A stretch of DNA of 64,000 nucleotides from a virus (taxonomy: Duplodnaviria; Caudoviricetes), in IMG/VR virus record IMGVR_UViG_3300020036_007076, positions 5,325 through 69,324 of that record. One strand, written 5' to 3'. A model generated the notes under the pieces. The model did no database searches, had not been told where the DNA came from, and saw only the letters and a list, made by a program, of their open reading frames with translations. Positions within the stretch are counted from its first letter, which is position 1. Each line of letters begins with the position of its first letter. The translations under genes were made by a program, and so were the position numbers. Positions 4,885-31,984 of the stretch are shown piece by piece.

Positions 4885-5106
4885 ATGGACGGAATATTTA
4901 TATTAGCAATTTTAATTTTATGGTTATTTTGTGGATTAATGGGATTTATCCTAATAACTACAGAATGTAACATGAAAAATTTAAAAATAGTAAAATATAC
5001 ACCTACTAAATTAATTTTTTATATGCTTATAATGGGATATTTAGGATTAGTAATAACATTGTTTGTACCTGTTGAAAAATATTTAAAAACAGTTAAGAAA
5101 AAGTAG
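4885..5106 (+). CDS. small membrane protein
   Basis: two hydrophobic helices. Confidence 0.55.
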   Translation: MDGIFILAILILWLFCGLMGFILITTECNMKNLKIVKYTPTKLIFYMLIMGYLGLVITLFVPVEKYLKTVKKK

Positions 5107-5301
5107 ATGAAAAATATATTAAAAAGATTATTATTTATACTGTTAATTTGGGTACCACTTCTAAATATATTAGTGGCTGGAATATTAGTGGCTCCTTATT
5201 TTATAATAACAGGGAAATTCATATTTGATGCTAAATTATTTAAATTAATAATGAATCTTCATTACAATTTAATTGAACAAAAAAATAAAAATGGAAAATA
5301 A
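5107..5301 (+). CDS. small membrane protein (paralog of 1156..1332)
   Basis: similarity visible by eye. Confidence 0.65.
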   Translation: MKNILKRLLFILLIWVPLLNILVAGILVAPYFIITGKFIFDAKLFKLIMNLHYNLIEQKNKNGK

Positions 5302-5719
5302 AAATACACCAATTTATCCAATAGCAGATTTAAATAATCATCCTTCATTACTATTTGGTTTAACAAAACGAGAATATTTTGTTGGTTTAGCTATGCAAGG
5401 ATTATTATCAAATCAGTCAATCACAGAACATCATGGAGAATCTGCAATAAAATGGATTACTGAGCATTCAATTAAACAAGCAGATGAAATATTAAAACAA
5501 TTAGGATTAAATATAATAGAAGAATCAAATGAATTCTTTAAAAATAAAGATGAAGTTTGGGTAAAAGATTTAGAGGATGAACTTCCAGTAAGTGCTATTT
5601 TCATTAAATATAATGATTCTAACCAAAAATTTAAATATAGGGTTATAATAGGAGGAAATGATTATGAATCTGATGTTGCTTTTTGTAAATTAAAAGGAAC
5701 TGACCAAAAATGGTATTAA
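5291..5719 (+). CDS. hypothetical phage protein (TKREYF..AMQGLL family)
   Basis: GLTKREYFVGLAMQGLL motif; start reassigned to MENKN. Confidence 0.65.
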   Translation: MENKNTPIYPIADLNNHPSLLFGLTKREYFVGLAMQGLLSNQSITEHHGESAIKWITEHSIKQADEILKQLGLNIIEESNEFFKNKDEVWVKDLEDELPVSAIFIKYNDSNQKFKYRVIIGGNDYESDVAFCKLKGTDQKWY

Positions 5720-5747
5720 TTTAATTCACCCTTATATAAAATATAAT

Positions 5748-8247: not shown

Positions 8248-8296
8248 TAACGGCATCAAGCTATGCGCTCGTTTTAATAGCGCATAGGTTGTGTTA
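8248..8296 (+). repeat. attC-like site S1
   Basis: TAAC ggcat CAAgCTATGCGCT cgttttaat AGCGCATAGgTTG t GTTA. Confidence 0.8.
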
Positions 8297-8435
8297 GTTG
8301 GTGCGGTTGCCAGTGGGCTGGTTCTGTTTGTTTTTGTTCTTTTTTGAGAAGGGAGGGGAATTTTAACAAATTATTTGAAACTTTTATTTGTATATATCGT
8401 ATATATGATGTATATTTACTGAAAAATTATAAACC

Positions 8436-8678
8436 ATGAAAACAAAAGAATATAATACAGTTGGTACAGTTGCTTTAAAAGCAGGCGGAACAATGGAAAT
8501 AGGTTCATATTTCAAAGAATTTGAATGCGAAGAAACTGGAATGAAATTAATTGAAGAAACACCAGTTGGATTAATGAGAATTACAGGTATAAAAAGAACT
8601 GTAATATTACCAACAGGAGAAAGAGAAAATTTTATGACTGAAACCACATTTGAAATATTTAAAAAATTAATGAAATGA
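8436..8678 (+). CDS. cassette 1 gene A, hypothetical
   Basis: inside cassette GTTAGTTG(8293)...CAACTAAC(8838). Confidence 0.65.
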   Translation: MKTKEYNTVGTVALKAGGTMEIGSYFKEFECEETGMKLIEETPVGLMRITGIKRTVILPTGERENFMTETTFEIFKKLMK

Positions 8679-8830
8679 GTAAGCAACGTAAAAATATAGA
8701 CTTCACTGATTTTTGTATTGAACAAATTTCGATTGAAGCAGTAAAGAAAAAAACCGATTTCAAGAATTATATTCAGGAATTATCTGAACGTGAAGCTGTG
8801 CGGTTGGCAAAAAAGAACAAAAACAAATAG
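8675..8830 (+). CDS. cassette 1 gene B, small hypothetical; not in ORF track
   Basis: MSKQRKNIDFTDFCIEQ...KNKNK*; ends immediately before CAACTAAC. Confidence 0.55.
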   Translation: MSKQRKNIDFTDFCIEQISIEAVKKKTDFKNYIQELSEREAVRLAKKNKNK

Positions 8831-8834
8831 CAAC

Positions 8835-8920
8835 TAACGGACGGCAATATATGTAGTTGCCTTGCACGAACTTAAAAATTAGTATAAACCTTAATAGGCA
8901 ATTACATATATTGCTTGTTA
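8835..8920 (+). repeat. attC-like site S2
   Basis: TAAC ggacg GCAATATATGTAGTTGCC ... GGCAATTACATATATTGC tt GTTA. Confidence 0.85.
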
Positions 8921-8934
8921 GCAAACGTTTTTTT

Positions 8935-9267
8935 ATGGATTATAAATTAACAACAAATATACAATATTCACACCACGATAAAGATGGTGCTGACAGAAAT
9001 TATATATCATATTTTTTGAATGGCATATTAATATTGAAACAAAAAATACCATTCGATACAAATTGGGAACGTGGCTTTGATAGACGAACATCAATATATG
9101 ATGAATATATTTTGAATGGTAAAATGTATCAAAAACGTAGAAAGTGGCTTGGATGTTCTAATGAGGATAATGATAAAACGGAAATACGAGAGGTGTCATT
9201 CCCATTATCAAAAAATAGATTAGCACAATTTGATATACCAAAGGACTTTCGGATTGTGGTGTCTTAA
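8935..9267 (+). CDS. cassette 2 gene, hypothetical
   Basis: start reassigned to MDYKL; flanked by GTTAGCAAAC and GTTTGCTAAC. Confidence 0.7.
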   Translation: MDYKLTTNIQYSHHDKDGADRNYISYFLNGILILKQKIPFDTNWERGFDRRTSIYDEYILNGKMYQKRRKWLGCSNEDNDKTEIREVSFPLSKNRLAQFDIPKDFRIVVS

Positions 9268-9276
9268 TATGTTTGC

Positions 9277-9402
9277 TAACGTAAAAGTATTGCCGAAGGT
9301 GGGGGCATTAAACCACCAAAGCTAAATTGAAACACAAATGATTGTTAAACCGATGAAGCACCATAGTAGCACTTCTGCCCCACTTTTGGCAATACAGTGT
9401 TA
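9277..9402 (+). repeat. attC-like site S3
   Basis: GTATTGCCGAAGGTGGGG ... CCCCACTTTTGGCAATAC between TAAC and GTTA. Confidence 0.85.
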
Positions 9403-9431
9403 GGTGCAGTGCTTCTCACAAATTTAAAATA

Positions 9432-9680
9432 ATGAAATACATAATTTATGAAATGATTACACCCGAACACTTACAAAAAGTAGTTCAAGAAGGTTATGGT
9501 TACACAAAAACACTTTACAGAAATGTCTTAGAAAAATTAGATGTTTCAGGTGTTGAAGCAGAACACCAAACATTAGAAATGGCTATGGCTGAAATTTTGT
9601 CAAAAAAAGATAAGTTGAAACACTTAGAATTAACGATACTTCCTGTAATAGCAATTTCTTGGGACGGTGAAGTTTCTTAG
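9432..9680 (+). CDS. cassette 3 gene, hypothetical
   Basis: flanked by GTTAGGTGCAGTGCT and AGCATTGCACCTAAC. Confidence 0.7.
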   Translation: MKYIIYEMITPEHLQKVVQEGYGYTKTLYRNVLEKLDVSGVEAEHQTLEMAMAEILSKKDKLKHLELTILPVIAISWDGEVS

Positions 9681-9689
9681 CATTGCACC

Positions 9690-9816
9690 TAACGGCTTCG
9701 GGCTTTGTGTCCGTTGGCGACTTAACCCACCAATGTTAAATTAAAATACAAAACTTGATAATATGAAAAATGTTGAATTGAAAAACGAAACCCCCACTTT
9801 TGGCAATGTGCTGTTA
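9690..9816 (+). repeat. attC-like site S4 (hybrid arms)
   Basis: left arm CGGGCTTTGTGTCCGTTGGCG; non-matching right arm CCCCACTTTTGGCAAT. Confidence 0.8.
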
Positions 9817-10152
9817 TGCCCCGTTTTGGGTCAAACGTATAATTACTTTGATGATGGGAAGATTAACCCAAGTCGAAGAATGGAAGTGGTTATAACAGAA
9901 ATTATTCCATTTGCCGAAATAGATTTAGAAACTTTAAATAATTGGAAAGAAGAAGTTGAAGAATGTGATTGGCTTTATGCTAAAGAAACGGATTTTTTTG
10001 TAAAGGCTGATTTGAAAATTTCCGATAATAAGACTGAAAAGATAATTTTTGTAAGAACCATTAATAATAACGATGGCTGGTTTAGTCTTGGATGGTGGGG
10101 AGGTAGATTAGACATAGATGGTTCGTTAAACGCTCTGTTAAATGGGGCATAA
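9763..10152 (+). CDS. cassette 4 gene, hypothetical; start codon lies in the S4 loop
   Basis: MKNVELKNETPTFGNVLL encoded by the hairpin; stop is the TAA of TAAC. Confidence 0.7.
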   Translation: MKNVELKNETPTFGNVLLCPVLGQTYNYFDDGKINPSRRMEVVITEIIPFAEIDLETLNNWKEEVEECDWLYAKETDFFVKADLKISDNKTEKIIFVRTINNNDGWFSLGWWGGRLDIDGSLNALLNGA

Positions 10153-10277
10153 CGTTTCTCGGCTTGTTGTCAGGCGGGGATTTAGAAACACAAAACTTTC
10201 AATTATGATACGAAGATTATTAGAATTACTACACTTGATTAAACCACAGAAGCCCCGCTTGCAACAAACCGATGTTA
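10150..10277 (+). repeat. attC-like site S5
   Basis: TCGGCTTGTTGTCAGGCGGGG ... CCCCGCTTGCAACAAACCGA. Confidence 0.85.
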
Positions 10278-10414
10278 GCGGAAGTGCTTCTCGTAAGCCT
10301 AACCCTTATCAGTTGGTTTGGTATAAGCAAGGTTGGTCGGAAAACAGAGTTAGAAAAAACAACTCAAAATATTGGGAATTTGAAATAGAACACAATGGTC
10401 TGCGGTTGCCATAG
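10205..10414 (+). CDS. cassette 5 gene, hypothetical; start in the S5 loop
   Basis: MIRRLLE...PRLQQTDVSGS; cassette ends GTTAGCGGAAGTGCT and AGCATTTCCGCTAAC. Confidence 0.6.
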   Translation: MIRRLLELLHLIKPQKPRLQQTDVSGSASRKPNPYQLVWYKQGWSENRVRKNNSKYWEFEIEHNGLRLP

Positions 10415-10423
10415 CATTTCCGC

Positions 10424-10549
10424 TAACGGTTTGCAGATTGCCGAAGGTGGGGCATTAAACCACTAAACTTTAATTAAAATACAAAACTTGATAATATGAA
10501 AAATGTTGAATTGAAAAACGAAACCGCCAATGGCACAAAACCCGTGTTA
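10424..10549 (+). repeat. attC-like site S6 (hybrid arms, reciprocal to S4)
   Basis: left arm ATTGCCGAAGGTGGGG; right arm CGCCAATGGCACAAAACCCG. Confidence 0.8.
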
Positions 10550-10765
10550 TCGGCTGGTTGGATTTCTGTAAAAGAGCAATTACCTGAATGTTGGAGTCAA
10601 CACCGAAATGATTATGGAAGTGGTTACGTTCTTGGTTATACTAAATATGGTGAATGGGAAATAACTCAACTTTGGAATAATAAAGATTGGGAAGGTGATG
10701 ATGACAATGAAGGTGATTATATTACTCATTGGATGCCGTTGACCGTTCCACCAACTTGCCGATAA
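10496..10765 (+). CDS. cassette 6 gene, DUF551-like
   Basis: WISVKEQLP...ITHWMPL; start in the S6 loop; stop is the TAA of TAAC. Confidence 0.75.
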   Translation: MKNVELKNETANGTKPVLSAGWISVKEQLPECWSQHRNDYGSGYVLGYTKYGEWEITQLWNNKDWEGDDDNEGDYITHWMPLTVPPTCR

Positions 10766-10891
10766 CGGTACTCAGATATATTTAGGTTTTCTTTTTAATA
10801 TATAAAACAAAAAAATAAACGAAGATGAAACATTTAAAAACACCACAAGAGTTGAACGAAGCATCAGAAAACTTGAATATATCTGATGTTA
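10763..10891 (+). repeat. attC-like site S7
   Basis: TCAGATATATTTAGGTTTTCT ... AGAAAACTTGAATATATCTGA. Confidence 0.85.
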
Positions 10892-11049
10892 GCCACAGTA
10901 TGACTGGTGAAGGTATGAACAGCCTTGAATTTTTTGATATGATTAAAAAGGAATGGTGTGTAAGTGAAGAACAGTATAAGCCATTCTGGAATGATGTGTT
11001 AACATTTGCTCGAAAGTATCACAAAGAACGTAAGGAATATTGTGGCTAA
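10825..11049 (+). CDS. cassette 7 gene, hypothetical; start in the S7 loop
   Basis: cassette ends GTTAGCCACAGTAT and ATATTGTGGCTAAC. Confidence 0.65.
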   Translation: MKHLKTPQELNEASENLNISDVSHSMTGEGMNSLEFFDMIKKEWCVSEEQYKPFWNDVLTFARKYHKERKEYCG

Positions 11050-11066
11050 CGGCCAATACTGTGTTA
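11047..11066 (+). repeat. attC-like site S8 (internally deleted)
   Basis: TAAC ggccaatactgt GTTA; no hairpin remains. Confidence 0.7.
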
Positions 11067-11111
11067 TAGGTAGTTGTTTTAAAAATTAGCGTTGGCATTA
11101 AAAATATAAAT

Positions 11112-11390
11112 ATGAAATCAGCAGAAGAAATTTTGAAGCCGTATGTTGAAACACCATTCAGGCATACGCAAATAGTTGAAAAAGACAATGCGTTGTTAGC
11201 AATGCAAAAGTTTGCAGACCAATTTAGAGGCGTTGAATGGATTGCGGTTAAAGACCAAAAACCAGCAGATTATGACAGAGTGTTATATTTTGATAGCAGA
11301 GATGGAAATATGAACGTAGGATATTTTGTTTGGTCGCAAACGCCTGTAGATTATGTAACGCATTGGATGAAATTACCTGCTAAACCTTAA
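11112..11390 (+). CDS. cassette 8 gene, DUF551-like C-terminal domain
   Basis: WIAVKDQKP...VTHWMKLP; cassette ends GTTATAGGTAGTTGTTT and AAACAATTACCTATAAC. Confidence 0.75.
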   Translation: MKSAEEILKPYVETPFRHTQIVEKDNALLAMQKFADQFRGVEWIAVKDQKPADYDRVLYFDSRDGNMNVGYFVWSQTPVDYVTHWMKLPAKP

Positions 11391-11423
11391 CTGTGCGGTG
11401 GGAATTTTTGAAACAATTACCTA

Positions 11424-11508
11424 TAACGGTTGCAAATATACAACGTTTTTTGTTAAAAATTCTAAATAAATTTGGTAGTCTGATAAAAATATTTTATATT
11501 TACTGTTA
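11424..11508 (+). repeat. attC-like site S9
   Basis: GCAAATATACAACGTTTTT ... AAAAATATTTTATATTTAC; weaker stem. Confidence 0.7.
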
Positions 11509-11524
11509 GCAAATCGTAAAAATT

Positions 11525-11671
11525 ATGAAAACTTACAAAGTATTATTTTGGTGGGGAAAAGTTAGAAGACAAGAATATGTAGATGCAGAAAAATTAGATG
11601 ATGCACTAAAGTTATTCAGACAAGGAAAATATGGTGATTATGATGTTATTAGCATAGTAGAAAGCGAATAA
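11525..11671 (+). CDS. cassette 9 gene, 48 aa hypothetical; not in ORF track
   Basis: MKTYKVLFWWGKVRRQEY...IVESE*; flanked by GTTAGCAAATCGTAAAAATTAT and ATAATTTTTATGTTTGCTAAC. Confidence 0.65.
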   Translation: MKTYKVLFWWGKVRRQEYVDAEKLDDALKLFRQGKYGDYDVISIVESE

Positions 11672-11684
11672 TTTTTATGTTTGC

Positions 11685-11811
11685 TAACGTAACGCAAGTA
11701 TAAGAAGTTGGGGACTTGAAAAAGTTGGCGTGGGTTCATCGAATCGGGTCAGTTATAGAAGCCGAAGTTCTCAATAGACTCATAACCCCCAATTTCTCAT
11801 ACTTGATGTTA
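11685..11811 (+). repeat. attC-like site S10
   Basis: CAAGTATAAGAAGTTGGGG ... CCCCAATTTCTCATACTTG. Confidence 0.85.
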
Positions 11812-11836
11812 TGTAATCGTTTTAATGTTACATAAC
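11808..11836 (+). mobile_element. gene-less cassette 10
   Basis: GTTATGTAAT cgttttaat GTTACATAAC. Confidence 0.7.
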
Positions 11837-11959
11837 GTTTTGCAGCTAAACGAGGTGGCTGATTAATACCTCGAAACTTAATTTAAATGTATAAAATTAT
11901 GAGTAAAGATAAAACTTCATTAGAAAACGAAAGCCAGCCATCTTGTTTAGGTGCTGTTA
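11833..11959 (+). repeat. attC-like site S11
   Basis: GCAGCTAAACGAGGTGGCTG ... CAGCCATCTTGTTTAGGTGC. Confidence 0.85.
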
Positions 11960-18374: not shown

Positions 18375-18773
18375 ATGAATAATCTTGATCCAAGAACTAC
18401 TAATATTGTAGTTGATATTTTAAGTAAAACTACCAATAAAGAATTCACTAAAATAATTCAGATGGTGGTTAAAAAGAAAATTAAGAAAACTCTCAAATTC
18501 GAATATAACGTATCTCCATCTACCACTACAGATTGGAATGTTATCAGAGTGGAATTAGCAGATGTGTTGGGGGAAAATGGATTCCATTATTTCAATGATA
18601 AACGCAAAAAATTCAGACGAATCAAATTATATGGTATTAAGGATACAAAACAATTCCTTAAATTCGTAGCAAAACGTTACCCACACCTTCATATCTATCA
18701 TTCAAATGAAAATGATAAAAGTAAATCTTACAGAAACTATTATGATGGATATTGTTTTAAATTACCTTTGTAG
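18375..18773 (+). CDS. hypothetical protein
   Basis: ORF; stop overlaps promoter TAG. Confidence 0.65.
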   Translation: MNNLDPRTTNIVVDILSKTTNKEFTKIIQMVVKKKIKKTLKFEYNVSPSTTTDWNVIRVELADVLGENGFHYFNDKRKKFRRIKLYGIKDTKQFLKFVAKRYPHLHIYHSNENDKSKSYRNYYDGYCFKLPL

Positions 18774-18788
18774 GATTACAATTTAAAT

Positions 18789-19435
18789 TAACGGTTTGCA
18801 TAAGACCAGTAAAGGAATGCGAGAGATGAACTATCGAGTTACACAACAGATTGAGCGGGCTACGATGCTGAAATTACCGATACAACCTTTATTGGTTTTA
18901 TGCGGTGTTACCGCCCGTTTTTATTAATCCTTAAATCAATTTATTATGAGTAAAAAACTCGAAATACTAAAACAATCATTGGCAAAAAAAGAGGAACAAC
19001 TTAACGCTAAATTTGATACTCATTTTGCAACTGTAAAACAAGCCAATGGGCAACCGCTCAACGACAAAAGAAATGGACAAGCCACTTTAAACAAGTGGGA
19101 ACGCCAAAACGAAGGTATTAGGACAATTCAAAAAAGCATTGAAGCGACTAAACAGGCTATTGAAATTGAAGAAGGTAAGATAAAAGGAGTTGAACACACT
19201 AATACTTTTATACCTGCCGAAATTCAAAAGCTGGTTGAAACTGGCGAACTAATTCAATGGAGAAAACACCCGCATACTTTTTTTGTTGCTGGAGTTGATA
19301 AGGCTCGAATTGTTTGGGATGAAAAACGCAAAGTAGTTGCTCATAAATTTGTTAGTGAAATTACTATTCAAGAGCAACGGACAAAATTTGTCAGAATATA
19401 CAACCCATTGAACGCTCTTTTAAATGGGCGGTAAC
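18789..19435 (+). mobile_element. orphan attC-like hairpin plus cassette, joined to the TAAC of an early promoter
   Basis: TAAC ggttt GCATAAGACCAGTAAAGG...CCTTTATTGGTTTTATGC ggt GTTACCGCCCGTTT (18907)...gene...AAATGGGCGGTAAC (19435). Confidence 0.85.
18946..19434 (+). CDS. orphan cassette gene, hypothetical coiled-coil protein
   Basis: stop codon is the TAA of the terminal TAAC. Confidence 0.75.
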   Translation: MSKKLEILKQSLAKKEEQLNAKFDTHFATVKQANGQPLNDKRNGQATLNKWERQNEGIRTIQKSIEATKQAIEIEEGKIKGVEHTNTFIPAEIQKLVETGELIQWRKHPHTFFVAGVDKARIVWDEKRKVVAHKFVSEITIQEQRTKFVRIYNPLNALLNGR

Positions 19436-19898
19436 ACTGATTTTATGGAAGCATTTAATTATGCTATTTCAGAATGGAATGAATTAGCAGATGGTGATAA
19501 TAAAATCAAATCAATCCCACTACCTATATTAAATGAAGCATGGTTATTTTTCCAAGAAGAGGGTGGTATTTCAGTTAATATTATTCAAGCTATGATATGT
19601 CAAATGTGTTAACAAAAACACTAGGACTACATAATTAATAATCATATATTTACAACATGAAAAATGAAAAATTATTATTAACTATTAATATTATATTTGG
19701 TGTAATAGCTCTATCATTATATACATTAAGATACTTTGTAGAATTTAATATAATTTATCCTATTTGTTGTAACATAATTCAATTCATTACAATTATATTT
19801 CAATTGATTAAAATTAAATAAAAAATTCAATTTATATTAGGACTACACTATTTTCAAACATATATTTAAAACATAATAATTATAAAATTCATAACATT

Positions 19899-22800
19899 AT
19901 GTCAAAAATAACAAAATATTCTACCCTAAAACAAAACCCTCCTAAACTAACCATCAAACAAGGAGCAAAAGAAGTTATATTCACCACCATTTCATGTATG
20001 TGTGATAACATTCACTACTTAAAATTCAAGAAAAATGAAGAAGGTGAATTTAAAATGAATGGGAATGGACACTCCATAAGTAATTGGATGATGAAACACC
20101 CAACCCACGAAATAGAATGGAAAGCAGACGAAAATAACTGGGATGAAGTAATCGAAATGATTAATTCAGGTACTGAAGTAGTGGAATCTGTAATCAGTAG
20201 ATAATTTATTAGGCTTACACAACCTATTAACATATATTTACAACATGAAAAAGAAAAACATACACAACCCAACAGATATCCTTACTCATGTATCTAAATT
20301 AGCTAATAAGTTAGAGGATGAAGGTGAATTACAACACGACTTGGGTAAATTTATTCATCTCGTAACTGAATTTGGAATAAAAAAAGCAAAAACATTTGAA
20401 GAAATAGATGCATTTGCTATGGGGGTGTTAGTTCAATTATAATTAATTTATTAGGTCTACAAAATAAATCAACATATATTTACATTATAAATAAAAAAAG
20501 CAAAAATATGAAAAATCTAAAACAATATGAAATTGATGCTATAGTTAATATTATAGTAGAGCAAATCACTCCTCAATTACAACACAAAATCTCCCCTAAA
20601 AAATTAAAACAGATGGAAGTGGACTCTGAGGAAGTTAAACTATTAGATAAACAAATTGATGATTTAACAAATAAACAAAGAAAAATATATGATAAATATA
20701 AAAATGATAGTGAAGTTTCTTGTTATAATAGTTCCTCCCAAATATTCATCCCCCAAAAAGTAAAATTGGATTGGAATGAAAGATTAAAAATTAAAGACGA
20801 AATCATTATTTCATCAATAGCAAACAAGGATATTGAAAAATTAATTAATCAGTTGGTAAAAAAATATTCTAAATAAACCACTAGGATTACACAATTTTAT
20901 AACGTATGTTTACAATATAAGAAATTAAAAATATAAACATTTAAAAAACTATATATCATGAAAGTATCTGATTTAGAATTAAGTAGTATCTTCTTTTCTA
21001 TGGAACACCCATTTGAAATTGGAGAAAATGGAGCAATTAAAGGAAAATTAGGATTCCAAATCATAGTATATGAAACTACTGATGGTGGGATAGGTATTGA
21101 TATTGAACATGTTGATACTATGGATGTTAAATTTTTAGGAATTGATATCGAACTAGGTTATCAAGAATTCAAACAATTCAAAGCTAAATTACTTGAATTA
21201 GGTATAGATGTGAAAAAATTATTGGATGAAGAAGTAGATAAATTTACAGCTGAATTTAATGGAAATGAAATTATTAAAACAAAATTAAAACAAATGTTTA
21301 ATTCTATTAAATAAATAGGACTACAAAACAAAAAAGCATATATTTACAACATGAAACAAATAAAACCTTATAATCAAGTCAAAATTGGTGACATGGCAAT
21401 GGAAAGTCCCGATGCAGGTAATAATTGGGACCATGAATTAGGTGAAATTGTTTGGAAAGGTACTCTAAAAGAGCTTAAAAATTCAAAATATAATGATTTA
21501 GCAGATTATTGGTTTGATGAAGAAGATATATTAGAAGGTTATGATTTAGTTGTAGTTATAACTACTGGGTGGGATGGAGGACCAACATTGTTTGGTTATG
21601 ATGAAGACCCATGTAGCTGTGTTGTATTTGAAGATTAATTAAATTACTAGGCTTACAAAGTTTTACAGTGTATATTTACTTTATAAGAAATTAAAAAAAG
21701 CTAAATATGAACTCAAACCTACTTGTAGTTGAAATAAATATTCCCAATAAACTAATCAAAGCACCCCAAGGTAAAATATTAGTTAAATGTGCTGTAGGGG
21801 ATGAAGATGATGGATATGAAGGGATGACTCAACAACAAATAATAAAAAAGCTAAAAAATAATTATAAAGATACATTAGATTCCCTAATAGCATACTCAGG
21901 AGCAGAAGACTATACGATCGAGGATTGGTTAGAAGAAATGGGTGATGATGAAGATGCTACGCAACTACAATTATCAGATGAAATAAAACTAACACCCAAT
22001 GATGTATGGATATATTGTTTTTTAGATACTAAATTCAATGAGAATGTGGTGATGGATGATTTAATGTATGAGGTAAAACCAAACATATATTTACATAGAG
22101 GTTAAACAATTTCATTAGGACTACAAAACAAAAAAGCATATATTTAATTCAAATAAAAAAGCAAAACATGAAAAAATATCGTGTATCAAGATCAGGAAAA
22201 GAATTAGTTAAACGTGTGGATGATTTCTTCGTTGAAGCAGATAAATTAGGAGCAATACTAGATGACGATGCAATTGATGATGATGATGATTCACTAATAG
22301 GGATAATGAATAGTTTAGTTCAGGTAGGTGATGAAGGAATTACTGAAGAAGAATTCGATGAAACTATTGGGGGTAACTGGGAAGCATGTCTACCACATTT
22401 GGAATTGATAGAATAAAAACCAACATATTAGGCCTACACAACAATAAAGTGTATATTTACAATATGAAAAACATAACACAACAAATAGAAGAGCTAAATA
22501 ATTCCAAGATTGAACGAAAAAGAGTACAATCAGGATTCGAATATTATAGCGATGGAAATTTAGTGATGGAATTAGACGGATTATGCTTACAAACAAACAA
22601 TCCAATATTCCAACAAGCATTAAAGAATGCGTTTAGTGTATATGGGGTGAGATATCAAATTGAAAAATATAATAACAATGTGATAGGATACTGCTTGACA
22701 TTGAGTGGATTGAGAAAAATAGCTCATTTACTATAAGTAGTAGGTTTACAAAATAAAAAAACATATATTTAAAACATAATAAATAAAATATATCATGGCT

Positions 22801-26662: not shown

Positions 26663-26727
26663 TATATTTGTATATATGTATTAAGGATGTATAGAGATGA
26701 AAGTATATACGTATTAAAATAATATAT

Positions 26728-26808
26728 TGCGGAATGTGAGAAGATGGTATCTCATTGGCCTCATAAGCCAACGCGTAAGCCTCACGGGTTCGAGTCCCGT
26801 TTCCGCTA
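26728..26808 (+). tRNA. tRNA-Met (CAT), initiator-like
   Basis: TTGGC CT CAT AA GCCAA; GGTTCGAGTCC T-arm; probable 1:72 mismatch. Confidence 0.8.
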
Positions 26809-26905
26809 CAAATAAAAATAGTTAGAAATAACATGAAGCGTAACGTCATCCGGAGGGGTCCTACGTACCATGACAATGTTCGGGAGTTGTTTATTTTTAT
26901 TATTT

Positions 26906-26977
26906 GGTCCTATAGTTCAAGGGATAGAACAGAAGTTTTCTAAACTTCCAATACAGGTTCGAGTCCTGTTGGGACTA
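26906..26977 (+). tRNA. tRNA-Arg (TCT)
   Basis: GAAGT TT TCT AA ACTTC. Confidence 0.9.
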
Positions 26978-26988
26978 CAAAAATATAT

Positions 26989-27060
26989 GCTCCCGTCGTC
27001 TACTGGCTAGGACATTTGGTTTTCGACCAAAGAAAGACGGATCGATACCGTTCGGGAGTA
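26989..27060 (+). tRNA. tRNA-Glu (TTC)
   Basis: TTTGG TT TTC GA CCAAA. Confidence 0.88.
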
Positions 27061-27362
27061 CGATTACTAAGGTAAAGCTAAGGGTGTAAGAACCTTTATG
27101 TTGGTTAGGGGGAAGCCCCCATGAAATTCTAGGGTAATTTCTTCCTAGAGGTTAAATCCAACTAAAGTGCTAAACTATATAGATAAAGTTAACTTACTTC
27201 CTCTTAGTCTTCAATTGACAGGAATAATACTTTCACATCGGGGTACCTGTAAGCGATGATAACTTAGTAAGTCTTACGTCAATCCATTGACTGTTTCAAA
27301 GGAAGAATTAAATGGATTATTAAGTATGGGCGTCCATCACCTACGACAGAGGAAGACCATAG
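27061..27362 (+). ncRNA. unassigned structured ncRNA of about 300 nt
   Basis: ORF-free; several helices, including crossing pairs 27064/27263 and 27197/27348. Confidence 0.5.
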
Positions 27363-27374
27363 ACACAATTTAAT

Positions 27375-27757
27375 GGGGTCGCCAGGCTTTTGCTGGATAC
27401 TTAAGTTCTTTGAGATGCATGTCGTGTTAGTATTGGAAACACGTAAATAACCTATATAAAAATCAAATGACGAAAAGTCTACTTTTACTTTCGAAGACGC
27501 AATGTCTTTCGTTGGTGCTGATTTAGCAGTAGCTGCTTAATCAATTTGGGTTGTATCCAACCTAGAAACAGAAGGATGCAAGAAATGAATAGAAAGTTTG
27601 AGTTGGTTTACAACTATTTAAATGAAACCGTTAGTCGTAATTGAACTATTTCTCAAAATCAATTATATTTTGTTAGTTTAGAAAAATTGACTAAACATGT
27701 AAATGAATTTCACTCAACACTTATCCAAACGAGGGTTCGATTCCCTCCGGCTCCACT
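27375..27757 (+). ncRNA. ssrA: tmRNA
   Basis: 5' GGGGTCG pairs with 3' CGGCTCC-A (G3.U70); T-arm GAGGG TTCGATT CCCTC; tag ORF 27469-27540 DEKSTFTFEDAMSFVGADLAVAA*. Confidence 0.9.
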
Positions 27758-27797
27758 TTTTCGAACTCCATATTCATATTTATAGTAAAATATAAGT

Positions 27798-28202
27798 ATG
27801 AAAATATGTTCGAAGTGTAAAAATGAAAAGGAGGAAAAGGAATTTAATAAAAATTCTAAAAACAAAAAAACTGGTTTATCTTCCTATTGTAAAGAATGTG
27901 TTAGAAATTCTTCCAAAATATATTATATAAATAATATTTCAATATATAAGGAAAATTACCAAAAACATAGAATTTGGTATGATGAATATAAAAGTTCTTT
28001 AAGATGTTCTAGATGTCCTGAAAACCATCCATCATGTTTAGAATTTCATCATTTAGATCCTAATGAAAAGGAAGGTGGAATATCTGAAATGTTGAAGAGG
28101 AGATTAGACAAAGAAATTATTTTAAAAGAAATTGAAAAGTGTATAGTATTATGTTCTAATTGTCATAAAAAAGAACACTATAAACCTTTTATACATAAAT
28201 AG
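27798..28202 (+). CDS. HNH endonuclease with N-terminal Zn finger
   Basis: CSKC..CKEC; CSRC..EFHHLDP..CIVLCSNCH. Confidence 0.85.
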   Translation: MKICSKCKNEKEEKEFNKNSKNKKTGLSSYCKECVRNSSKIYYINNISIYKENYQKHRIWYDEYKSSLRCSRCPENHPSCLEFHHLDPNEKEGGISEMLKRRLDKEIILKEIEKCIVLCSNCHKKEHYKPFIHK

Positions 28203-28274
28203 CGGGGTAGAGAAGTGGTCATCTCGCAAGCCTCATAAGCTTGAGATCGTTGGTTCGAATCCAACTCAGCGCTA
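28201..28274 (+). tRNA. tRNA-Met (CAT), irregular acceptor stem
   Basis: CAAGC CT CAT AA GCTTG; extra base in the 3' acceptor strand; overlaps the HNH stop codon. Confidence 0.7.
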
Positions 28275-28432
28275 CAACAATACCTTATCAGGCCTCTCGA
28301 CTACCAAAAATGAAGCCCAAATGAGTGAGGTCTTTTTATGTGAATCAAGTTGGGTAGAACAAGATATGACTATGGAGCTCTGTTAAAGAGACGTTTTTAA
28401 CATCTCCTAAACTTTTTTAAATTAAATAAAAA

Positions 28433-28603
28433 ATGGCATTACCTATTAAAAGTACTCCAACTTTATATGGAGAAGATGCAAGAAAATTTTTGGAAGCTAT
28501 AGCTAATCCGAAAAAAGCATCTCCAGAAGAAATCGCTAGAATGAAAGCTCATTATGAAGATTTTAAAAAGATAATGGAGAAAAGTAAAGAAAATTTTGAG
28601 TAA
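28433..28603 (+). CDS. small hypothetical protein; not in ORF track
   Basis: MALPIKSTPTLYGEDARKFLEAI...KENFE*. Confidence 0.65.
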   Translation: MALPIKSTPTLYGEDARKFLEAIANPKKASPEEIARMKAHYEDFKKIMEKSKENFE

Positions 28604-28769
28604 ATTAGGAAATTTAAAATTTCCATCATATATTAAAGTATAAGAAAAAATAATAAAAATTGTATTTTTACAAAATTTACAATATGTATAATAAGAATTG
28701 ATATTCCTTATAAACGAATGGATATAGTACAAGGGCCATTCATATCATCTTAACAATTTAAATAATAAA

Positions 28770-28945
28770 ATGAAAACAACTTACATACATAATCAATTTA
28801 GTCCGTGCCTTCAGGCGACGTATCGTTTATCGATTGTCGATAATAAGGGATGGGGTATAAACCATGGTTCGGTATTAGATGTAGTTTAATTAAGATATAA
28901 TTAAATGATTAATCCGAACCAGGTAAAAGAGGTTCGGATTTTTTG
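28770..28945 (+). promoter_or_regulatory. leader peptide (28770-28889) with antiterminator/terminator; probable attenuator of the tRNA operon
   Basis: 39 aa ORF rich in G/C-ending codons; terminator AATCCGAACC/GGTTCGGATT-TTTT; competing CCATGGTTCGG inside the ORF. Confidence 0.65.
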
Positions 28946-28959
28946 TTTTATATACATAC

Positions 28960-29033
28960 GCGTCTTTAGCTCAGTTTGGTAGAGCACTGGTCTCCAAAAC
29001 CATAGGTCGTAGGTTCGATCCCTACAGGGCGTG
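28960..29033 (+). tRNA. tRNA-Trp (CCA)
   Basis: CTGGT CT CCA AA ACCAT. Confidence 0.9.
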
Positions 29034-29038
29034 CGAAA

Positions 29039-29109
29039 GGTGAAGAGTGTGGGTTCGATACCCATCGAGCCGTTAGGTCGGCTTGTAGTTTAAGTGGTAA
29101 AACATCACT
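29039..29109 (+). ncRNA. circularly permuted tRNA-like RNA (YrlA/Y-RNA-like architecture)
   Basis: GGTGA - T-arm GTGGG TTCGATA CCCAT - CGAGCCG ttaggt CGGCTTG - D-arm GTTT AAGTGGTA AAAC - TCACT. Confidence 0.7.
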
Positions 29110-29117
29110 CATTATAA

Positions 29118-29202
29118 GGAAGGTTGGCAGAGAGGCTTATTGCACTAGTCTTGAAAACTAGAGGATGTAAAAGTTCCGTGAGTTCAAATCTCACACCTTC
29201 CT
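29118..29202 (+). tRNA. tRNA-Ser (TGA)
   Basis: CTAGT CT TGA AA ACTAG; long variable arm. Confidence 0.9.
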
Positions 29203-29211
29203 CAATAAATT

Positions 29212-29298
29212 GGAAGTTAGGTAAATATTGGTTTGTTACGATAACCTGCTAAGTTATTCCAGGTTACACTGGTGAGAGTTCGATTCTCTTGACTTCCG
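29212..29298 (+). tRNA. tRNA-Ser (GCT)
   Basis: ATAAC CT GCT AA GTTAT; long variable arm. Confidence 0.88.
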
Positions 29299-29310
29299 CA
29301 TAAAATATAT

Positions 29311-29380
29311 GGGCGCGATGCCGAAGGCAGGCGGAAACTTTTGCAAAGTTTTTATTAGGGTTCGATTCCCTCGTGGTCCA
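29311..29380 (+). tRNA. tRNA-Ala (TGC), irregular
   Basis: AAACT TT TGC AA AGTTT; G3.T70 pair and A73; bulged acceptor stem. Confidence 0.6.
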
Positions 29381-29431
29381 CAAAGGTTTAGTTTAGAGAT
29401 ATCTATTTTCCTTAAAAAATGAATTCCACCA

Positions 29432-29504
29432 CATCATATAGCTCAGCTGGTAGAGCATTTGTCTGATAAGCAAAAGGCCGTTGGTTCAACTCCAATTATG
29501 ATGA
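29432..29504 (+). tRNA. tRNA-Ile (GAT)
   Basis: TTTGT CT GAT AA GCAAA. Confidence 0.88.
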
Positions 29505-29558
29505 CTTAAAAAATTAAAAAATGGAAACAAGTAAGAAAATCGAGGACGATAAGATTAT

Positions 29559-29630
29559 GTCCTCGTGGCGAGAAGGCACGCGCAGTATACTTTTAATATA
29601 CGGGTAGGGGTTCGATTCCCCTCGGGGACA
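29559..29630 (+). tRNA. tRNA-Lys (TTT)
   Basis: GTATA CT TTT AA TATAC. Confidence 0.82.
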
Positions 29631-29640
29631 CAAAATATAA

Positions 29641-29713
29641 GCTTTGGAAGCTCAGAAGGTAGAGCGGCTGACTGTTAATCAGATGGATGTGGGTTCGACT
29701 CCCACACGAAGCG
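29641..29713 (+). tRNA. tRNA-Asn (GTT)
   Basis: GCTGA CT GTT AA TCAGA. Confidence 0.88.
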
Positions 29714-29724
29714 CAAAAAATAAT

Positions 29725-29809
29725 GGGAGTAAGGTGAATATAGGTTTGTCACCACGGTCTGTAAAACCGCAGCTTTACGTAAGGGTAGGTTCGATTCCTA
29801 CTACTCCCA
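29725..29809 (+). tRNA. tRNA-Tyr (GTA)
   Basis: ACGGT CT GTA AA ACCGC; long variable arm. Confidence 0.88.
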
Positions 29810-29814
29810 CTAAT

Positions 29815-29887
29815 GGATCTTTAGCAAAGTTGGTCAATGCGCTTGTCTGAAGAACAAGTTATATCGGTTCGATTCCGATAGGGTCCA
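29815..29887 (+). tRNA. tRNA-Phe (GAA)
   Basis: CTTGT CT GAA GA ACAAG. Confidence 0.88.
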
Positions 29888-29893
29888 CAAAAA

Positions 29894-29969
29894 CGTGTAA
29901 TAGAGGAGTCAGGTTTATCTCGCTTCATTTGGGATGAAGAGCACGCAGGTTCGAATCCTGCTTACACGA
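29894..29969 (+). tRNA. tRNA-Pro (TGG)
   Basis: CTTCA TT TGG GA TGAAG. Confidence 0.9.
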
Positions 29970-29974
29970 CGAAT

Positions 29975-30048
29975 GCCCTTTTAGCTCAGCAGGAAGTAGC
30001 GCTTGTTTTACATACAAGAGGTCGTAAGTTCGATTCTTACAGAGGGTA
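29975..30048 (+). tRNA. tRNA-Val (TAC)
   Basis: CTTGT TT TAC AT ACAAG. Confidence 0.88.
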
Positions 30049-30054
30049 CTATAA

Positions 30055-30128
30055 GCAGGTAACGCATAAATGGTGGTGCATTGGTCTTCCAAACCGAAAT
30101 AGAGCGAGTTCGATCCTCGCTACCTGCT
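30055..30128 (+). tRNA. tRNA-Gly (TCC)
   Basis: TTGGT CT TCC AA ACCGA. Confidence 0.88.
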
Positions 30129-30202
30129 CAAAAGTTAAAATAGGTCATGATGACGAGACGCCAAATCCACGACTCATATGAATACTAATTAACTTTTATT
30201 AC

Positions 30203-30274
30203 GGTCTATTGGTGTAGGGGTAACAGTACTGTCCTGTCACGGCAGTGTCGCGAGTTCGAGTCTCGCATAGACCG
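30203..30274 (+). tRNA. tRNA-Asp (GTC)
   Basis: CTGTC CT GTC AC GGCAG. Confidence 0.9.
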
Positions 30275-30323
30275 CGAGTTGCACCTTTTTGAACCCATAT
30301 AATATTTATAATAAAATATAAGT

Positions 30324-30734
30324 ATGAAAATATGTTCGAAGTGTAAAATAGAAAAAGAATTAGATAAATTCTTTAAAAATAAAATGAATTGTAAAGATGG
30401 ACATTCTGCTTGGTGTAAAAAATGTCAATTAGAACATAAAAAAATTCATTATATTAATAATAAAGATAAATATTCAGTTAGTTCATTTAATAGTAAAAAA
30501 TGGTTTATTGATTTAAAAATTGGATTAAAATGTATAAATTGTGGATTTAATCATCCTGCAGCATTAGATTTTCACCATGTTAATCCTAAAGAAAAACTTT
30601 TCCCTATTAATTATAGTAATTTTGGTAGAAAAAGTAGAGGAGAAATATTAAAAGAAATAGAAAAATGTATAGTTTTATGTTCAAATTGTCATAGAATAGA
30701 ACATTCAATTAAATATAATGAATATATAAAATAA
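30324..30734 (+). CDS. HNH endonuclease, paralog of 27798..28202
   Basis: MKICSKCK start; DFHHVNP..CIVLCSNCH. Confidence 0.85.
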   Translation: MKICSKCKIEKELDKFFKNKMNCKDGHSAWCKKCQLEHKKIHYINNKDKYSVSSFNSKKWFIDLKIGLKCINCGFNHPAALDFHHVNPKEKLFPINYSNFGRKSRGEILKEIEKCIVLCSNCHRIEHSIKYNEYIK

Positions 30735-30808
30735 GCTTCATACGCATGAATGGTGGTGCACCTCACTTGTAATGAGGAATAGATTCGGTTCGATCCCGGA
30801 ATGAAGCT
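30735..30808 (+). tRNA. tRNA-Thr (TGT)
   Basis: CCTCA CT TGT AA TGAGG. Confidence 0.88.
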
Positions 30809-30874
30809 CTGTGTTGCAACTAATCTGAGGGTCCACAGGTCTAGCCTCAGTTAAAATGACAAAAAGGCCGACCA

Positions 30875-30947
30875 GTACCCTTAGCTCAGATGGTAGAGCA
30901 GTTCACTCATAATGAAAAGGTCACAGGTTCAATTCCTGTAGGGTGCA
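30875..30947 (+). tRNA. tRNA-CAT (elongator Met or Ile2)
   Basis: GTTCA CT CAT AA TGAAA. Confidence 0.85.
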
Positions 30948-30952
30948 CATAG

Positions 30953-31025
30953 GGTGAAATGGTTGAGTGGTTTTAAACACTAGTCTGCAAAACTAGGTAG
31001 GTTGGTTCAATTCCAACTTTCACCT
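30953..31025 (+). tRNA. tRNA-Cys (GCA)
   Basis: CTAGT CT GCA AA ACTAG; U73. Confidence 0.88.
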
Positions 31026-31036
31026 CAAAAGTATAC

Positions 31037-31110
31037 TCTCCCCTCGTCTAATTGGCAGGATGCGATGCTTTGAACATTGCGATGGTTTGGTTCGAATCCA
31101 CCGGGGAGAA
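31037..31110 (+). tRNA. tRNA-Gln (TTG)
   Basis: CGATG CT TTG AA CATTG. Confidence 0.85.
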
Positions 31111-31115
31111 CATAT

Positions 31116-31191
31116 GGTGTTAATAGCTCAATTGGTCAGAGCGCTTGTTTGTGAGATAAGAGGTTATGGGTTCGATCCCCATTTAATACCC
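31116..31191 (+). tRNA. tRNA-His (GTG)
   Basis: CTTGT TT GTG AG ATAAG; G-1 and C73. Confidence 0.88.
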
Positions 31192-31196
31192 TTAAT

Positions 31197-31269
31197 ACAC
31201 CGTTAGTTTAACTGGATAGAATGAGAGGCTACGAACTTCTTGGTATAGGTTCAAATCCTATATGGTGTA
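31197..31269 (+). tRNA. tRNA-Arg (ACG)
   Basis: AGAGG CT ACG AA CTTCT. Confidence 0.9.
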
Positions 31270-31281
31270 CGTTTAATTAAT

Positions 31282-31357
31282 GCCCAACTGGCGAAACTGG
31301 TAGTACGCGTTAGTCTTAGAAACTAAATTTTTGTGGGTTCGAATCCCACGTTGGGTA
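31282..31357 (+). tRNA. tRNA-Leu (TAG), short variable arm
   Basis: TTAGT CT TAG AA ACTAA. Confidence 0.85.
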
Positions 31358-31378
31358 CAAATATTTATTATAAAAAAT

Positions 31379-31459
31379 GCTCCCTTGGTGAAACTGGTAG
31401 TACACGATGAGCTTAAGACTCATTGCCTAGGCGTGCGAGTTCGACTCTCGCAGGGAGTA
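31379..31459 (+). tRNA. tRNA-Leu (TAA)
   Basis: ATGAG CT TAA GA CTCAT. Confidence 0.88.
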
Positions 31460-31474
31460 CAAAAAATTAAAATT

Positions 31475-31984
31475 ATGCGGATACATAGAATAAATAAAGA
31501 TTTAACTAAAATATTAGTTCTTAACTCAGACTATTTACCTGTGAATGTAACTACATTCAAAAAAGCATATAAACTAGTATATAAAGGAAAAGCTGAAATT
31601 GTTGAGCAAGATAACTTATATAAAGTAAATGATAAATTTACTAAACCATCAGTTATTCGTTTAATTAAATATGTTAATATCCCATATAGAAAAGTAGTTT
31701 TATCAAGAGAAAATATATTTAAAAGAGATGAACATAAATGTGCTTATTGCCCATCAGTTAAAAATTTAACAGTCGACCATATTATTCCTAAATCTAAAGG
31801 TGGTTTAAATACATGGGAAAATTTAATTACTTGTTGTTTTTCTTGTAATGCTAAAAAAGGAGATAGAACTCCTGAACAAGCAGGAATGAAATTATCATTC
31901 AAACCTAGTAAACCTCACCCTATATATTTTATTTATAAAATACATAAAGATGTAGAAAAATGGCAACCATATTTAATGTTTTAA
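31475..31984 (+). CDS. HNH endonuclease (McrA-like)
   Basis: CAYC..LTVDHIIPKSKGG..TWENLITCCFSCNAKKG; start reassigned to MRIHR. Confidence 0.88.
   Translation: MRIHRINKDLTKILVLNSDYLPVNVTTFKKAYKLVYKGKAEIVEQDNLYKVNDKFTKPSVIRLIKYVNIPYRKVVLSRENIFKRDEHKCAYCPSVKNLTVDHIIPKSKGGLNTWENLITCCFSCNAKKGDRTPEQAGMKLSFKPSKPHPIYFIYKIHKDVEKWQPYLMF

What the first reader, a model, noticed from the sequence alone, without database searches (positions are those of the whole stretch)
18771..19435. Orphan cassette joined to the AAC of an early phage promoter
Seen: TAGGATTACA-atttaaattaa-C matches intact promoters (16058: TAGGATTACA-agttaaattaa-CATATATTT) up to TAAC, then switches to a full hairpin (GCATAAGACCAGTAAAGG/CCTTTATTGGTTTTATGC), GTTACCGCCCGTTT, a 162 aa gene and AAATGGGCGGTAAC. 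No hairpin follows the gene. This independently supports a hairpin-first unit with crossover at AA|C. Inference: the promoter repeat, which usually has AAC before its second box, can act as a secondary recombination target, linking the two modular systems. Caveat: the missing ATATATTTA is not found at the right junction, so this was not a clean insertion.
Basis: partly seen in the sequence, partly recalled or inferred. Interest (0 to 1): 0.8.

Follow-up and report, generated by a model that had tools for sequence, protein, structure and literature searches.

The report
Mobile gene cassette replacing phage promoter half
A 643-base mobile gene cassette (a DNA hairpin plus one gene), of a kind that some phages store in integron-like rows beside a small recombinase, has replaced about 1.1 kb of this phage's early region between two TAAC sites, and close relatives still carry the intact "before" sequence, so this is a natural record of such cassettes moving.

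Summary
Box 1 and the spacer of the promoter repeat are intact at 18771-18791. After TAAC (18789-18792) come a 24-pair hairpin, GTTA plus a 10-nt tail (18907-20), a 162-aa gene, and the tail's complement plus TAAC (19422-35).

Contigs of very close relatives (flank up to 99% identical) carry the empty site. There the same box 1 and spacer run into an intact box 2. On the right, the window rejoins the relatives inside a 99-aa gene, again directly after a TAAC. So the cassette replaced about 1,083 bp.

The unit 18789-19435 occurs at 99% identity or more in four unrelated metagenomes, and the match ends at both TAACs. A second unit is 100% identical in two different arrays. The contig also encodes a Xer-like tyrosine recombinase just outside the window. 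This enzyme lacks the integron-integrase insertion. In five other phage contigs its homologue sits directly after such an array.

Best reading: off-target site-specific recombination by a phage "mirror integron". I found no sign that promoters are preferred targets.

This scan has met the system in at least 66 other genomes, and a secondary-site insertion once. I found no paper describing it.

The parts
18375..18773 (+). Upstream resident phage gene (132 aa). Its stop codon TAG is the first three bases of promoter box 1.
   Evidence: ORF list. 98% identical proteins in relatives L080-L084.
18771..18792 (+). Surviving half of a promoter repeat: box 1 (18771-80), the 11-nt spacer (18781-91) and the C that would start box 2. 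Box 2 is missing.
   Evidence: Relatives have the identical 22 nt followed by an intact box 2.
18789..18792 (+). Left junction core, TAAC. Phage-side homology ends at 18792 and cassette-side homology begins at 18789, so the overlap is 4 nt.
   Evidence: relatives. (cassette copies in other contexts start at 18788/18789).
18793..18906 (+). Hairpin site of the cassette (attC-like). Arms at 18798-18815 and 18886-18903, a 70-nt conserved loop, and a 2-nt bulge at the base. It folds well only on the + strand.
   Evidence: The same ~125-nt element occurs in 15 other IMG/VR contigs, in 13 of them directly after TAACG and in the other two after TAACC or CAACG.
18907..18920 (+). GTTA plus the 10-nt cassette-specific tail (inner inverted repeat).
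   Evidence: The tail co-varies with its partner at the cassette's right end in other cassettes carrying the same gene family.
18946..19434 (+). Cargo gene, 162 aa. It has no Pfam family. The domain also occurs inside large polyvalent proteins. The stop codon is the TAA of the right-hand TAAC.
   Evidence: Model pLDDT 92.5, no PDB fold match.
19422..19435 (+). Right end of the cassette: complement of the tail plus TAAC. It overlaps the last codons of the cargo gene.
   Evidence: one mismatch, a G.T position. Searches show synonymous changes here matched by changes in the left tail.
19432..19435 (+). Right junction core, TAAC. Cassette-side homology ends at 19435 and phage-side homology resumes at 19432.
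   Evidence: the relatives have TAAC at the same point inside their 99-aa gene..
19424..19612 (+). 3' remnant of a resident 99-aa gene whose first 27 codons were lost. An ATG inside the cassette's right end (19424) is in frame with it, and an internal ATG lies at 19445.
19622..19653 (+). Next intact promoter repeat, resident DNA shared with the relatives.
8248..11959 (+). Resident array of the same kind of hairpin cassettes in this phage. It shows the phage carries the system. A second array and the recombinase gene lie just before the window, at contig positions 117-2555 and 3466-4263.
   Evidence: Site scan. Recombinase.

Best explanation
Positions 18793-19435 are one 643-bp hairpin-first gene cassette. 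It has the order hairpin site, GTTA plus tail, cargo gene, tail-complement plus TAAC. It belongs to an integron-like system of Bacteroidota-type phages that is served by a short Xer-like tyrosine recombinase. The cassette was joined to two off-target TAAC sites in the phage's early region. One site lies at the spacer/box-2 boundary of a promoter repeat. The other lies inside a 99-aa gene. The cassette now replaces the roughly 1.08 kb that relatives carry between those sites. Shown here: both junctions overlap the cassette core by exactly TAAC; the empty site exists in relatives; the same unit is mobile elsewhere; and recombinase and arrays are linked. Inferred: the recombinase did it, acting on the folded + strand at TAA|C as integron integrases act on attC. 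The likeliest route is insertion at the TAAC inside the gene, followed by a deletion between the new hairpin site and the upstream promoter TAAC. The cargo is probably read through from the promoter at 18316, because its own promoter lost box 2. Its domain occurs in polyvalent proteins, which suggests an early or counter-defence role, but that is a guess.
For: Empty site: six contigs of close relatives are 95-99% identical up to 18792 and then run into an intact box 2. They rejoin the window at 19432, directly after a TAAC inside a 99-aa gene, 1,083 bp further on. TAAC occurs only 5-6 times per kb. Two junctions both falling on it, and both on the cassette's canonical boundaries, is therefore very unlikely by chance. 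Discrete mobile unit: contigs from four independent metagenomes match 18789-19435 at 99% or more and diverge at both TAACs into other sequences. L104 and L106 share a 576-nt unit at 100% identity, bounded in the same way, with unrelated flanks. System: 15 further copies of the hairpin in IMG/VR, all but two preceded by TAACG and each followed by GTTA plus a tail; in seven of them the tail's complement plus TAAC was found downstream, around different genes. Tail and tail-complement co-vary, including through synonymous codon changes. Enzyme: a 265-aa tyrosine recombinase lies on the same contig. Its 71-80% identical homologues in five other phage contigs each sit directly after an array of 4-18 such sites. 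In each, the last cassette ends about 50 nt before the start codon, followed by a hairpin-less stretch that is similar in four of the six loci. Strand asymmetry: five G.T pairs, and the + strand folds much better than the - strand.
Against: No recombination was observed directly. The exact junctions were found in no other record, and the four runs laid did not cover them, so the event rests on one assembly. The relatives' 99-aa gene is only 82.5% identical to the window's remnant, so the true parent, and hence the exact size of the lost segment, is unknown. Five other contigs that carry this hairpin have no tyrosine recombinase, though they are only 36-78% complete. Near-identical gene modules carry different upstream hairpins with the break at GTTA, so TAA|C on the left is not the only exchange point. 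A 4-nt overlap is also what microhomology-mediated joining would leave.
Confidence: 0.8

Rival explanations
1. Illegitimate, microhomology-mediated joining (template switching or end joining at a 4-nt TAAC match) brought in foreign DNA. No site-specific recombinase was involved.
For: Both junctions show only a 4-nt overlap. Apart from TAAC, the two targets do not clearly resemble the canonical half-site: they rank 5th and 9th of 23 TAACs in L080.
Against: On the donor side, both breaks fall exactly on the boundaries at which the same unit is exchanged in arrays and in four other metagenomes. Random joining has no reason to cut out exactly one cassette at both ends.
Confidence: 0.1
2. The hairpin and the long-range inverted repeat are RNA-level features, such as a processing site, stabiliser or terminator of an early transcript. 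The gene arrived by ordinary homologous recombination between phages.
For: The hairpin is on the sense strand with G-U pairs and folds significantly as RNA. Its loop is conserved at the nucleotide level without a coding signature. It lies between genes of one transcription direction.
Against: There is no flanking homology at the junctions. Identical units sit in unrelated contexts. Arrays sit directly before a recombinase gene. The tails pair across the gene, as expected for a circular DNA intermediate. No Rfam family matches. An RNA role could coexist with the DNA role.
Confidence: 0.06
3. Assembly chimera: the metagenome assembler spliced a cassette from another genome into the phage contig.
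For: The window comes from a metagenome-derived virus record. The junctions were not seen in any other record or in the four runs laid.
Against: Assemblers join on shared words of 20 nt or more, and here each junction shares only 4 nt. Two such false joins, both on the biological core TAAC and excising one exact cassette, are not credible. The phage itself carries two arrays of the same system.
Confidence: 0.03

Closest known systems
[quoted passage not shown] From my own knowledge: the aadB cassette in RSF1010, described by Recchia and Hall, 1995.
   Same: A single cassette sits outside its array, joined to short core-only targets (AAC/GTT). The crossover maps to the AAC core. Off-target events can delete genomic segments.
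   Different: The enzyme candidate is a 265-aa Xer-like recombinase without the integron-integrase insertion. The hairpin site lies before its gene, not after it. The host is a lytic-type phage. The event is a replacement of about 1.08 kb, not a precise insertion.
Clusters of attC sites without an integrase (CALINs) in virulent phages, for example Polaribacter phage P12002L (Qi et al. 2023, PMC9892861)
   Same: Hairpin recombination sites separate small genes in lytic phages, including phages of Bacteroidota hosts.
   Different: Those are two or three sites detected with canonical attC models and shown to work with IntI1. Here the arrays hold up to 18 sites, have their own adjacent recombinase, show a mirrored gene orientation, and include a documented movement event.
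PeSL promoter/stem-loop cassettes of T4-type phages (Arbiol et al. 2010, PMC2839356; PMC4122927)
   Same: Repeated early-promoter motifs bound small variable genes. Relatives of this phage also differ by whole promoter-bounded modules.
   Different: PeSL shuffling works through homology between repeat copies. This junction has only 4 nt of overlap and destroys the promoter, and the hairpin belongs to a different, recombinase-linked system.
Sedentary chromosomal integrons with uniform ~125-nt attC sites (Vibrio cholerae repeats; from my own knowledge)
   Same: A ~125-nt hairpin site is highly conserved across many cassettes with unrelated cargo, with TAAC...GTTA at its base.
   Different: There is no IntI. 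The array lies upstream of the recombinase gene and runs in the same direction. The cassettes are found in phages.

Membership tests
Classical integron (IntI / attI / attC) | Integrase of the IntI clade with the IntI-specific additional domain | tested here: not met
   The recombinase scores below the cut-offs of both the integron-integrase model (151 against 265 bits) and the XerA model (166 against 220 bits). Where IntI4 has 84 residues (181-265), it has 37 (177-214). The catalytic R, HxxR, H and Y motifs align.
Classical integron (IntI / attI / attC) | attC: an imperfect hairpin with RYYYAAC and GTTRRRY cores at its base | tested here: inconclusive
   The AAC...GTT cores at the base of a bulged hairpin are present and conserved. 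The flanking RYYY/RRRY consensus is not obeyed (GTTACCG here). No attC covariance model was available.
Classical integron (IntI / attI / attC) | Crossover at AA|C of the folded strand | tested here: met
   Both junctions map to a 4-nt TAAC overlap. The exact bond cannot be resolved.
Classical integron (IntI / attI / attC) | Cassette is a gene followed by its attC; the folded strand is the template strand | tested here: not met
   The hairpin precedes the gene and folds on the sense strand. Arrays end without a hairpin next to the recombinase gene.
Classical integron (IntI / attI / attC) | Array adjacent to the integrase gene with a primary, hairpin-less attI site | tested here: met
   In six of six loci the last cassette ends about 50 nt before the recombinase start, followed by a hairpin-less stretch that is similar in four of them. 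However, the array is upstream and co-directional, not divergent.
Integron cassette at a secondary site | A single cassette outside the array, with the target carrying only the core triplet | tested here: met
   The empty-site relatives have TAAC at both target points and nothing else clearly resembling the site.
Integron cassette at a secondary site | Precise insertion without loss of target DNA | tested here: not met
   The relatives carry 1,083 bp between the two target TAACs.
PeSL-type promoter/stem-loop shuffling | Exchange through homology between complete promoter/stem-loop repeats | tested here: not met
   The junction lies inside the promoter with a 4-nt overlap, and box 2 is lost.
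Terminal-inverted-repeat transposon or IS200/IS605-type hairpin element | Inverted repeats or hairpins at both termini, a transposase gene, and a target duplication at a single site | tested here: not met
   The termini are not inverted repeats of each other. There is no hairpin at the right end and no transposase. The two TAACs are 1,083 bp apart in the empty site.

The most novel reading that the evidence does not exclude
A phage-encoded Xer-like recombinase that lacks the domain thought necessary for integron chemistry recombines folded sense-strand hairpin sites at TAA|C. It thereby runs a mirror-image integron that trades early or counter-defence gene cassettes among Bacteroidota phages. 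Its off-target activity at bare TAAC sites actively remodels phage early regions, here replacing a promoter half and several resident genes.
Probability: 0.5. Interest if true: 0.85.

Novelty: new variant of a known kind. Interest (0 to 1): 0.7.

Why it matters
Integrons are the textbook device for trading gene cassettes. They are thought to need a specialised integrase and to belong to bacteria. This locus gives a natural before-and-after pair for a cassette of a phage-borne, mirror-oriented counterpart that uses a simpler Xer-like enzyme. It fixes the exchange point to TAAC. It shows that hairpin plus gene is the unit that moves. It also shows that off-target events can delete resident phage genes and inactivate a promoter. 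The system becomes directly testable, because defined substrates (the hairpin, the two natural targets and the recombinase gene) can be taken from one contig. It also offers a mechanism for the rapid turnover of small early genes in large phages.

Tried and rejected
- **Nucleotide searches of GenBank phages.** They found only a Proteus phage gene 51% identical to the cargo, in an ordinary early operon with no cassette features.
- **Flanking genes.** The upstream and downstream genes have no relatives in IMG/VR by pattern search. Distant relatives of the upstream gene (38% identity) only show that a full promoter follows it.
- **Exact-junction searches.** Searches in JGI metagenomes and IMG/VR found nothing. 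The four runs laid covered the cassette but not the window's junctions. This says nothing about absence.
- **Other promoter-hairpin junctions.** The survey gave three chance matches.
- **Resemblance of the targets to the canonical half-site.** A weight matrix built from 83 canonical left half-sites did not rank the two targets highly. By eye, the promoter target does carry A and T at the two best-conserved positions (-8 and -7), and none of the other TAAC-bearing promoter copies listed does. That is suggestive only.
- **Small ORF in the hairpin loop.** The 33-codon ORF shows no codon-position bias (7, 9 and 6 variable columns) and its frame is not kept, so I reject it as a gene.
- **Terminator reading of the tail.** The short stem plus T-run around the tail in this copy is not conserved in other cassettes with the same gene.
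- **Cargo function.** Pfam gave only a sub-threshold nuclease-fold hit (E 0.035). PHROGs and NCBIfam gave nothing. Foldseek against the PDB gave no match at E 0.001 or better.
- **Rfam.** No family matches at the hairpin.
- **Recombinase in other hairpin-bearing contigs.** Five such contigs have no tyrosine recombinase, but they are fragments.

Full report
**Setting.** The window is 64 kb of a 69.3-kb metagenome-derived virus record estimated to be 43% complete. It is a large AT-rich phage with 25 tRNA genes and a tmRNA. Its large proteins are closest to those of Flavobacterium myophages. The first 26 kb is a run of small + strand genes. Most are preceded by a two-box repeat: a 10-nt box 1, an 11-nt spacer and a box 2 that resembles the Bacteroidota -7 element. 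The contig holds 35 complete copies. I call these promoters on the strength of position and consensus only.

**The observation.** Every element is present at the stated places.
- Box 1 and the spacer are intact at 18771-18791. The next base, C, completes a TAAC (18789-18792).
- Then comes a hairpin instead of box 2. Its arms are at 18798-18815 and 18886-18903.
- In an alignment of 16 copies the stem extends to 24 pairs with a 2-nt bulge near its base.
- Five of the pairs are G.T. As a result the + strand folds well as ssDNA (-18.3 kcal/mol, z -4.1) and the - strand does not (-11.3 kcal/mol, z -1.4).
- GTTA plus a 10-nt tail follows at 18907-18920. The 162-aa ORF runs from 18946 to 19434. The complement of the tail plus TAAC lies at 19422-19435, and the gene's stop codon lies within that TAAC.
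- Nothing hairpin-like follows.

**The empty site.** The upstream 132-aa protein has 87-98% identical relatives on six short contigs from other samples.
- These contigs are 95-99% identical to the window up to 18792. They then continue with an intact box 2 and a different gene.
- The relatives therefore have the same box 1 and the same spacer, but a complete promoter.
- On the right, the window matches the relatives again from 19432. That point lies inside a 99-aa gene, and in the relatives it is directly preceded by a TAAC.
- In contig L080 the two TAACs end at positions 851 and 1934. The cassette thus stands in place of 1,083 bp: box 2, three small genes and the first 27 codons of the 99-aa gene.
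- The 62-codon ORF after the cassette is the 3' remnant of that gene. An ATG inside the cassette's right end is in frame with it.
The event was not a clean insertion because the second junction is a second TAAC site further downstream.
- One reservation: the remnant is only 82.5% identical to the relatives' gene, while the left flank is 95-99% identical. The true parent differed from the contigs I found, so the exact content of the lost segment is uncertain.

**The cassette is a discrete mobile unit.** I laid contigs of four metagenomes on the region: wastewater 2017, wastewater 2020, bioreactor sludge 2022 and sediment 2020.
- In each, a contig matches 18789-19435 at 99% or more. Where a contig runs on past either TAAC (in three of the four runs) it continues into unrelated sequence; behind the right end, two of these begin like array hairpin sites seen.
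- In the sludge run a 650-nt contig consists of the unit alone.
- At each junction of the window, phage-side and cassette-side homology overlap by exactly TAAC.
- Independently, contigs L104 and L106 share 576 nt at 100% identity. This stretch comprises TAAC, a short hairpin, GTTA plus tail, the same gene family, and tail-complement plus TAAC. The flanks on both sides are unrelated.
- Over longer times the parts reassort. Gene modules 91-93% identical to the window's carry other hairpins, and the homology starts at GTTA. The window's hairpin in turn precedes unrelated genes elsewhere.

**The wider system.**
- The window's hairpin, loop included, recurs in 15 other IMG/VR contigs. In 13 it follows TAACG directly (the other two have TAACC and CAACG), and in every one it is followed by GTTA plus a tail.
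- In cassettes with this gene family the tail and its complement change together. Two synonymous codon changes at the gene's end are matched by changes in the non-coding left tail. That is what a circular intermediate, in which the two tails abut, would select for.
- Just outside the window, the contig encodes a 265-aa tyrosine recombinase (contig 3466-4263) preceded by a seven-site array.
- This enzyme is Xer-like. It scores below the cut-offs of both the XerA and the integron-integrase models. It has 37 residues where IntI4 has 84, so it lacks the integron-specific insertion. The catalytic motifs align.
- Homologues 71-80% identical in five other phage contigs all sit directly after an array of 4-18 sites on the same strand.
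- In all six loci the last cassette ends in tail-complement plus TAAC about 50 nt before the start codon. A hairpin-less stretch, similar in four of the six loci, follows, which looks like an attI counterpart.
- This geometry fits hairpin-first cassettes that enter at a TAAC next to the enzyme gene.
- Earlier agents of this scan reached the same general picture on other genomes. One reported a precise secondary-site insertion in a phage gene. I did not rely on these notes for any claim here.

**Mechanism.** The best reading is off-target site-specific recombination.
- Integron integrases are known to use minimal core-only secondary sites. [quoted passage not shown]
- Here the analogous core is TAAC on the folded sense strand.
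- The simplest route has two steps. First, the circular cassette inserts at the TAAC inside the 99-aa gene. Second, a deletion occurs between the new hairpin site and the upstream promoter TAAC. A double exchange with a co-infecting donor is also possible. The order of events is inferred, not shown.
- TAAC occurs 5-6 times per kb, so chance coincidence at both junctions, and at both canonical cassette ends, is remote.

**Are promoters preferred targets?** I see no evidence that they are. Only 11 of about 345 TAACs on the + strand of the contig lie in promoter copies. The second target was a coding TAAC. A survey found no other case. The promoter target scores only fifth of 23 against a half-site matrix. 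It does, however, match that matrix's two best-conserved positions (A at -8, T at -7).

**Cargo.** The 162-aa protein belongs to a family of more than 1,000 clusters without a Pfam model or an informative name. It includes a Flavobacterium chromosomal copy and a gene of a P22-like Proteus phage. The same domain is embedded in proteins of 800-3,800 aa. Of seven large proteins scanned, five carry polyvalent-protein domains such as LPD1, LPD3, ART-PolyVal (a sub-threshold match), InPase, and the metallopeptidase with ArdC-N; the other two gave no Pfam match. The model is confident (pLDDT 92.5): a long helical hairpin plus a small sheet. It has no PDB fold match. An early-infection or counter-defence role is a reasonable guess, nothing more.

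**Literature.** Small clusters of attC sites in virulent phages are described (PMC9892861), as is promoter/stem-loop shuffling in T4-type phages (PMC2839356). In four full-text searches I found no description of Xer-associated, hairpin-first cassette arrays in phages.

Noticed in passing
Contig positions 117-4263, just before the window (locus L079 covers 2269-5730): A second, seven-site cassette array ends in a cassette that carries an ADP-ribosyltransferase of the polyvalent-protein type. About 50 nt later comes a 265-aa Xer-like tyrosine recombinase gene.
   Followed up: yes
window 20882-21699, compared with L080:830-1634: In the relatives, the genes that follow the intact promoter are 80% identical copies of a two-gene module that sits 2 kb further downstream in the window. 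Promoter-bounded modules therefore occupy different slots in related phages, much like PeSL shuffling.
   Followed up: partly
window 14075 and 17922 (L081:1-1101, L083:1-1209): Two relatives join the gene ending near 14073 directly to the promoter at 17924. They thus lack about 3.8 kb that the window has. In the window, that gene is not followed by a promoter.
   Followed up: partly
window 19590-19612, compared with L080 around 2110-2150: The relatives' 99-aa gene has a 16-nt tandem duplication near its end that changes and lengthens the C-terminus. The window's remnant lacks it.
   Followed up: no
window 18816-18885: The 70-nt loop of the hairpin is conserved at the nucleotide level in 12 of 16 copies from unrelated contigs. 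It shows no coding signature, so it may bind a protein or act as RNA.
   Followed up: partly
window 8409-8419 and 22084-22094: Two box-2 motifs stand without a box 1. The first lies just inside the resident cassette array. The second lies in the end of a gene, 42 nt before a complete promoter. They could be leftovers of similar breaks.
   Followed up: no
window 11048-11427: One resident cassette has almost no inner hairpin, with only 12 nt between TAAC and GTTA. Instead it has 25-nt tails flanking its gene. The tail pairing alone would form the site in a circular form.
   Followed up: no
window 26700-31500: A block of 25 tRNA genes plus a tmRNA gene.
   Followed up: no
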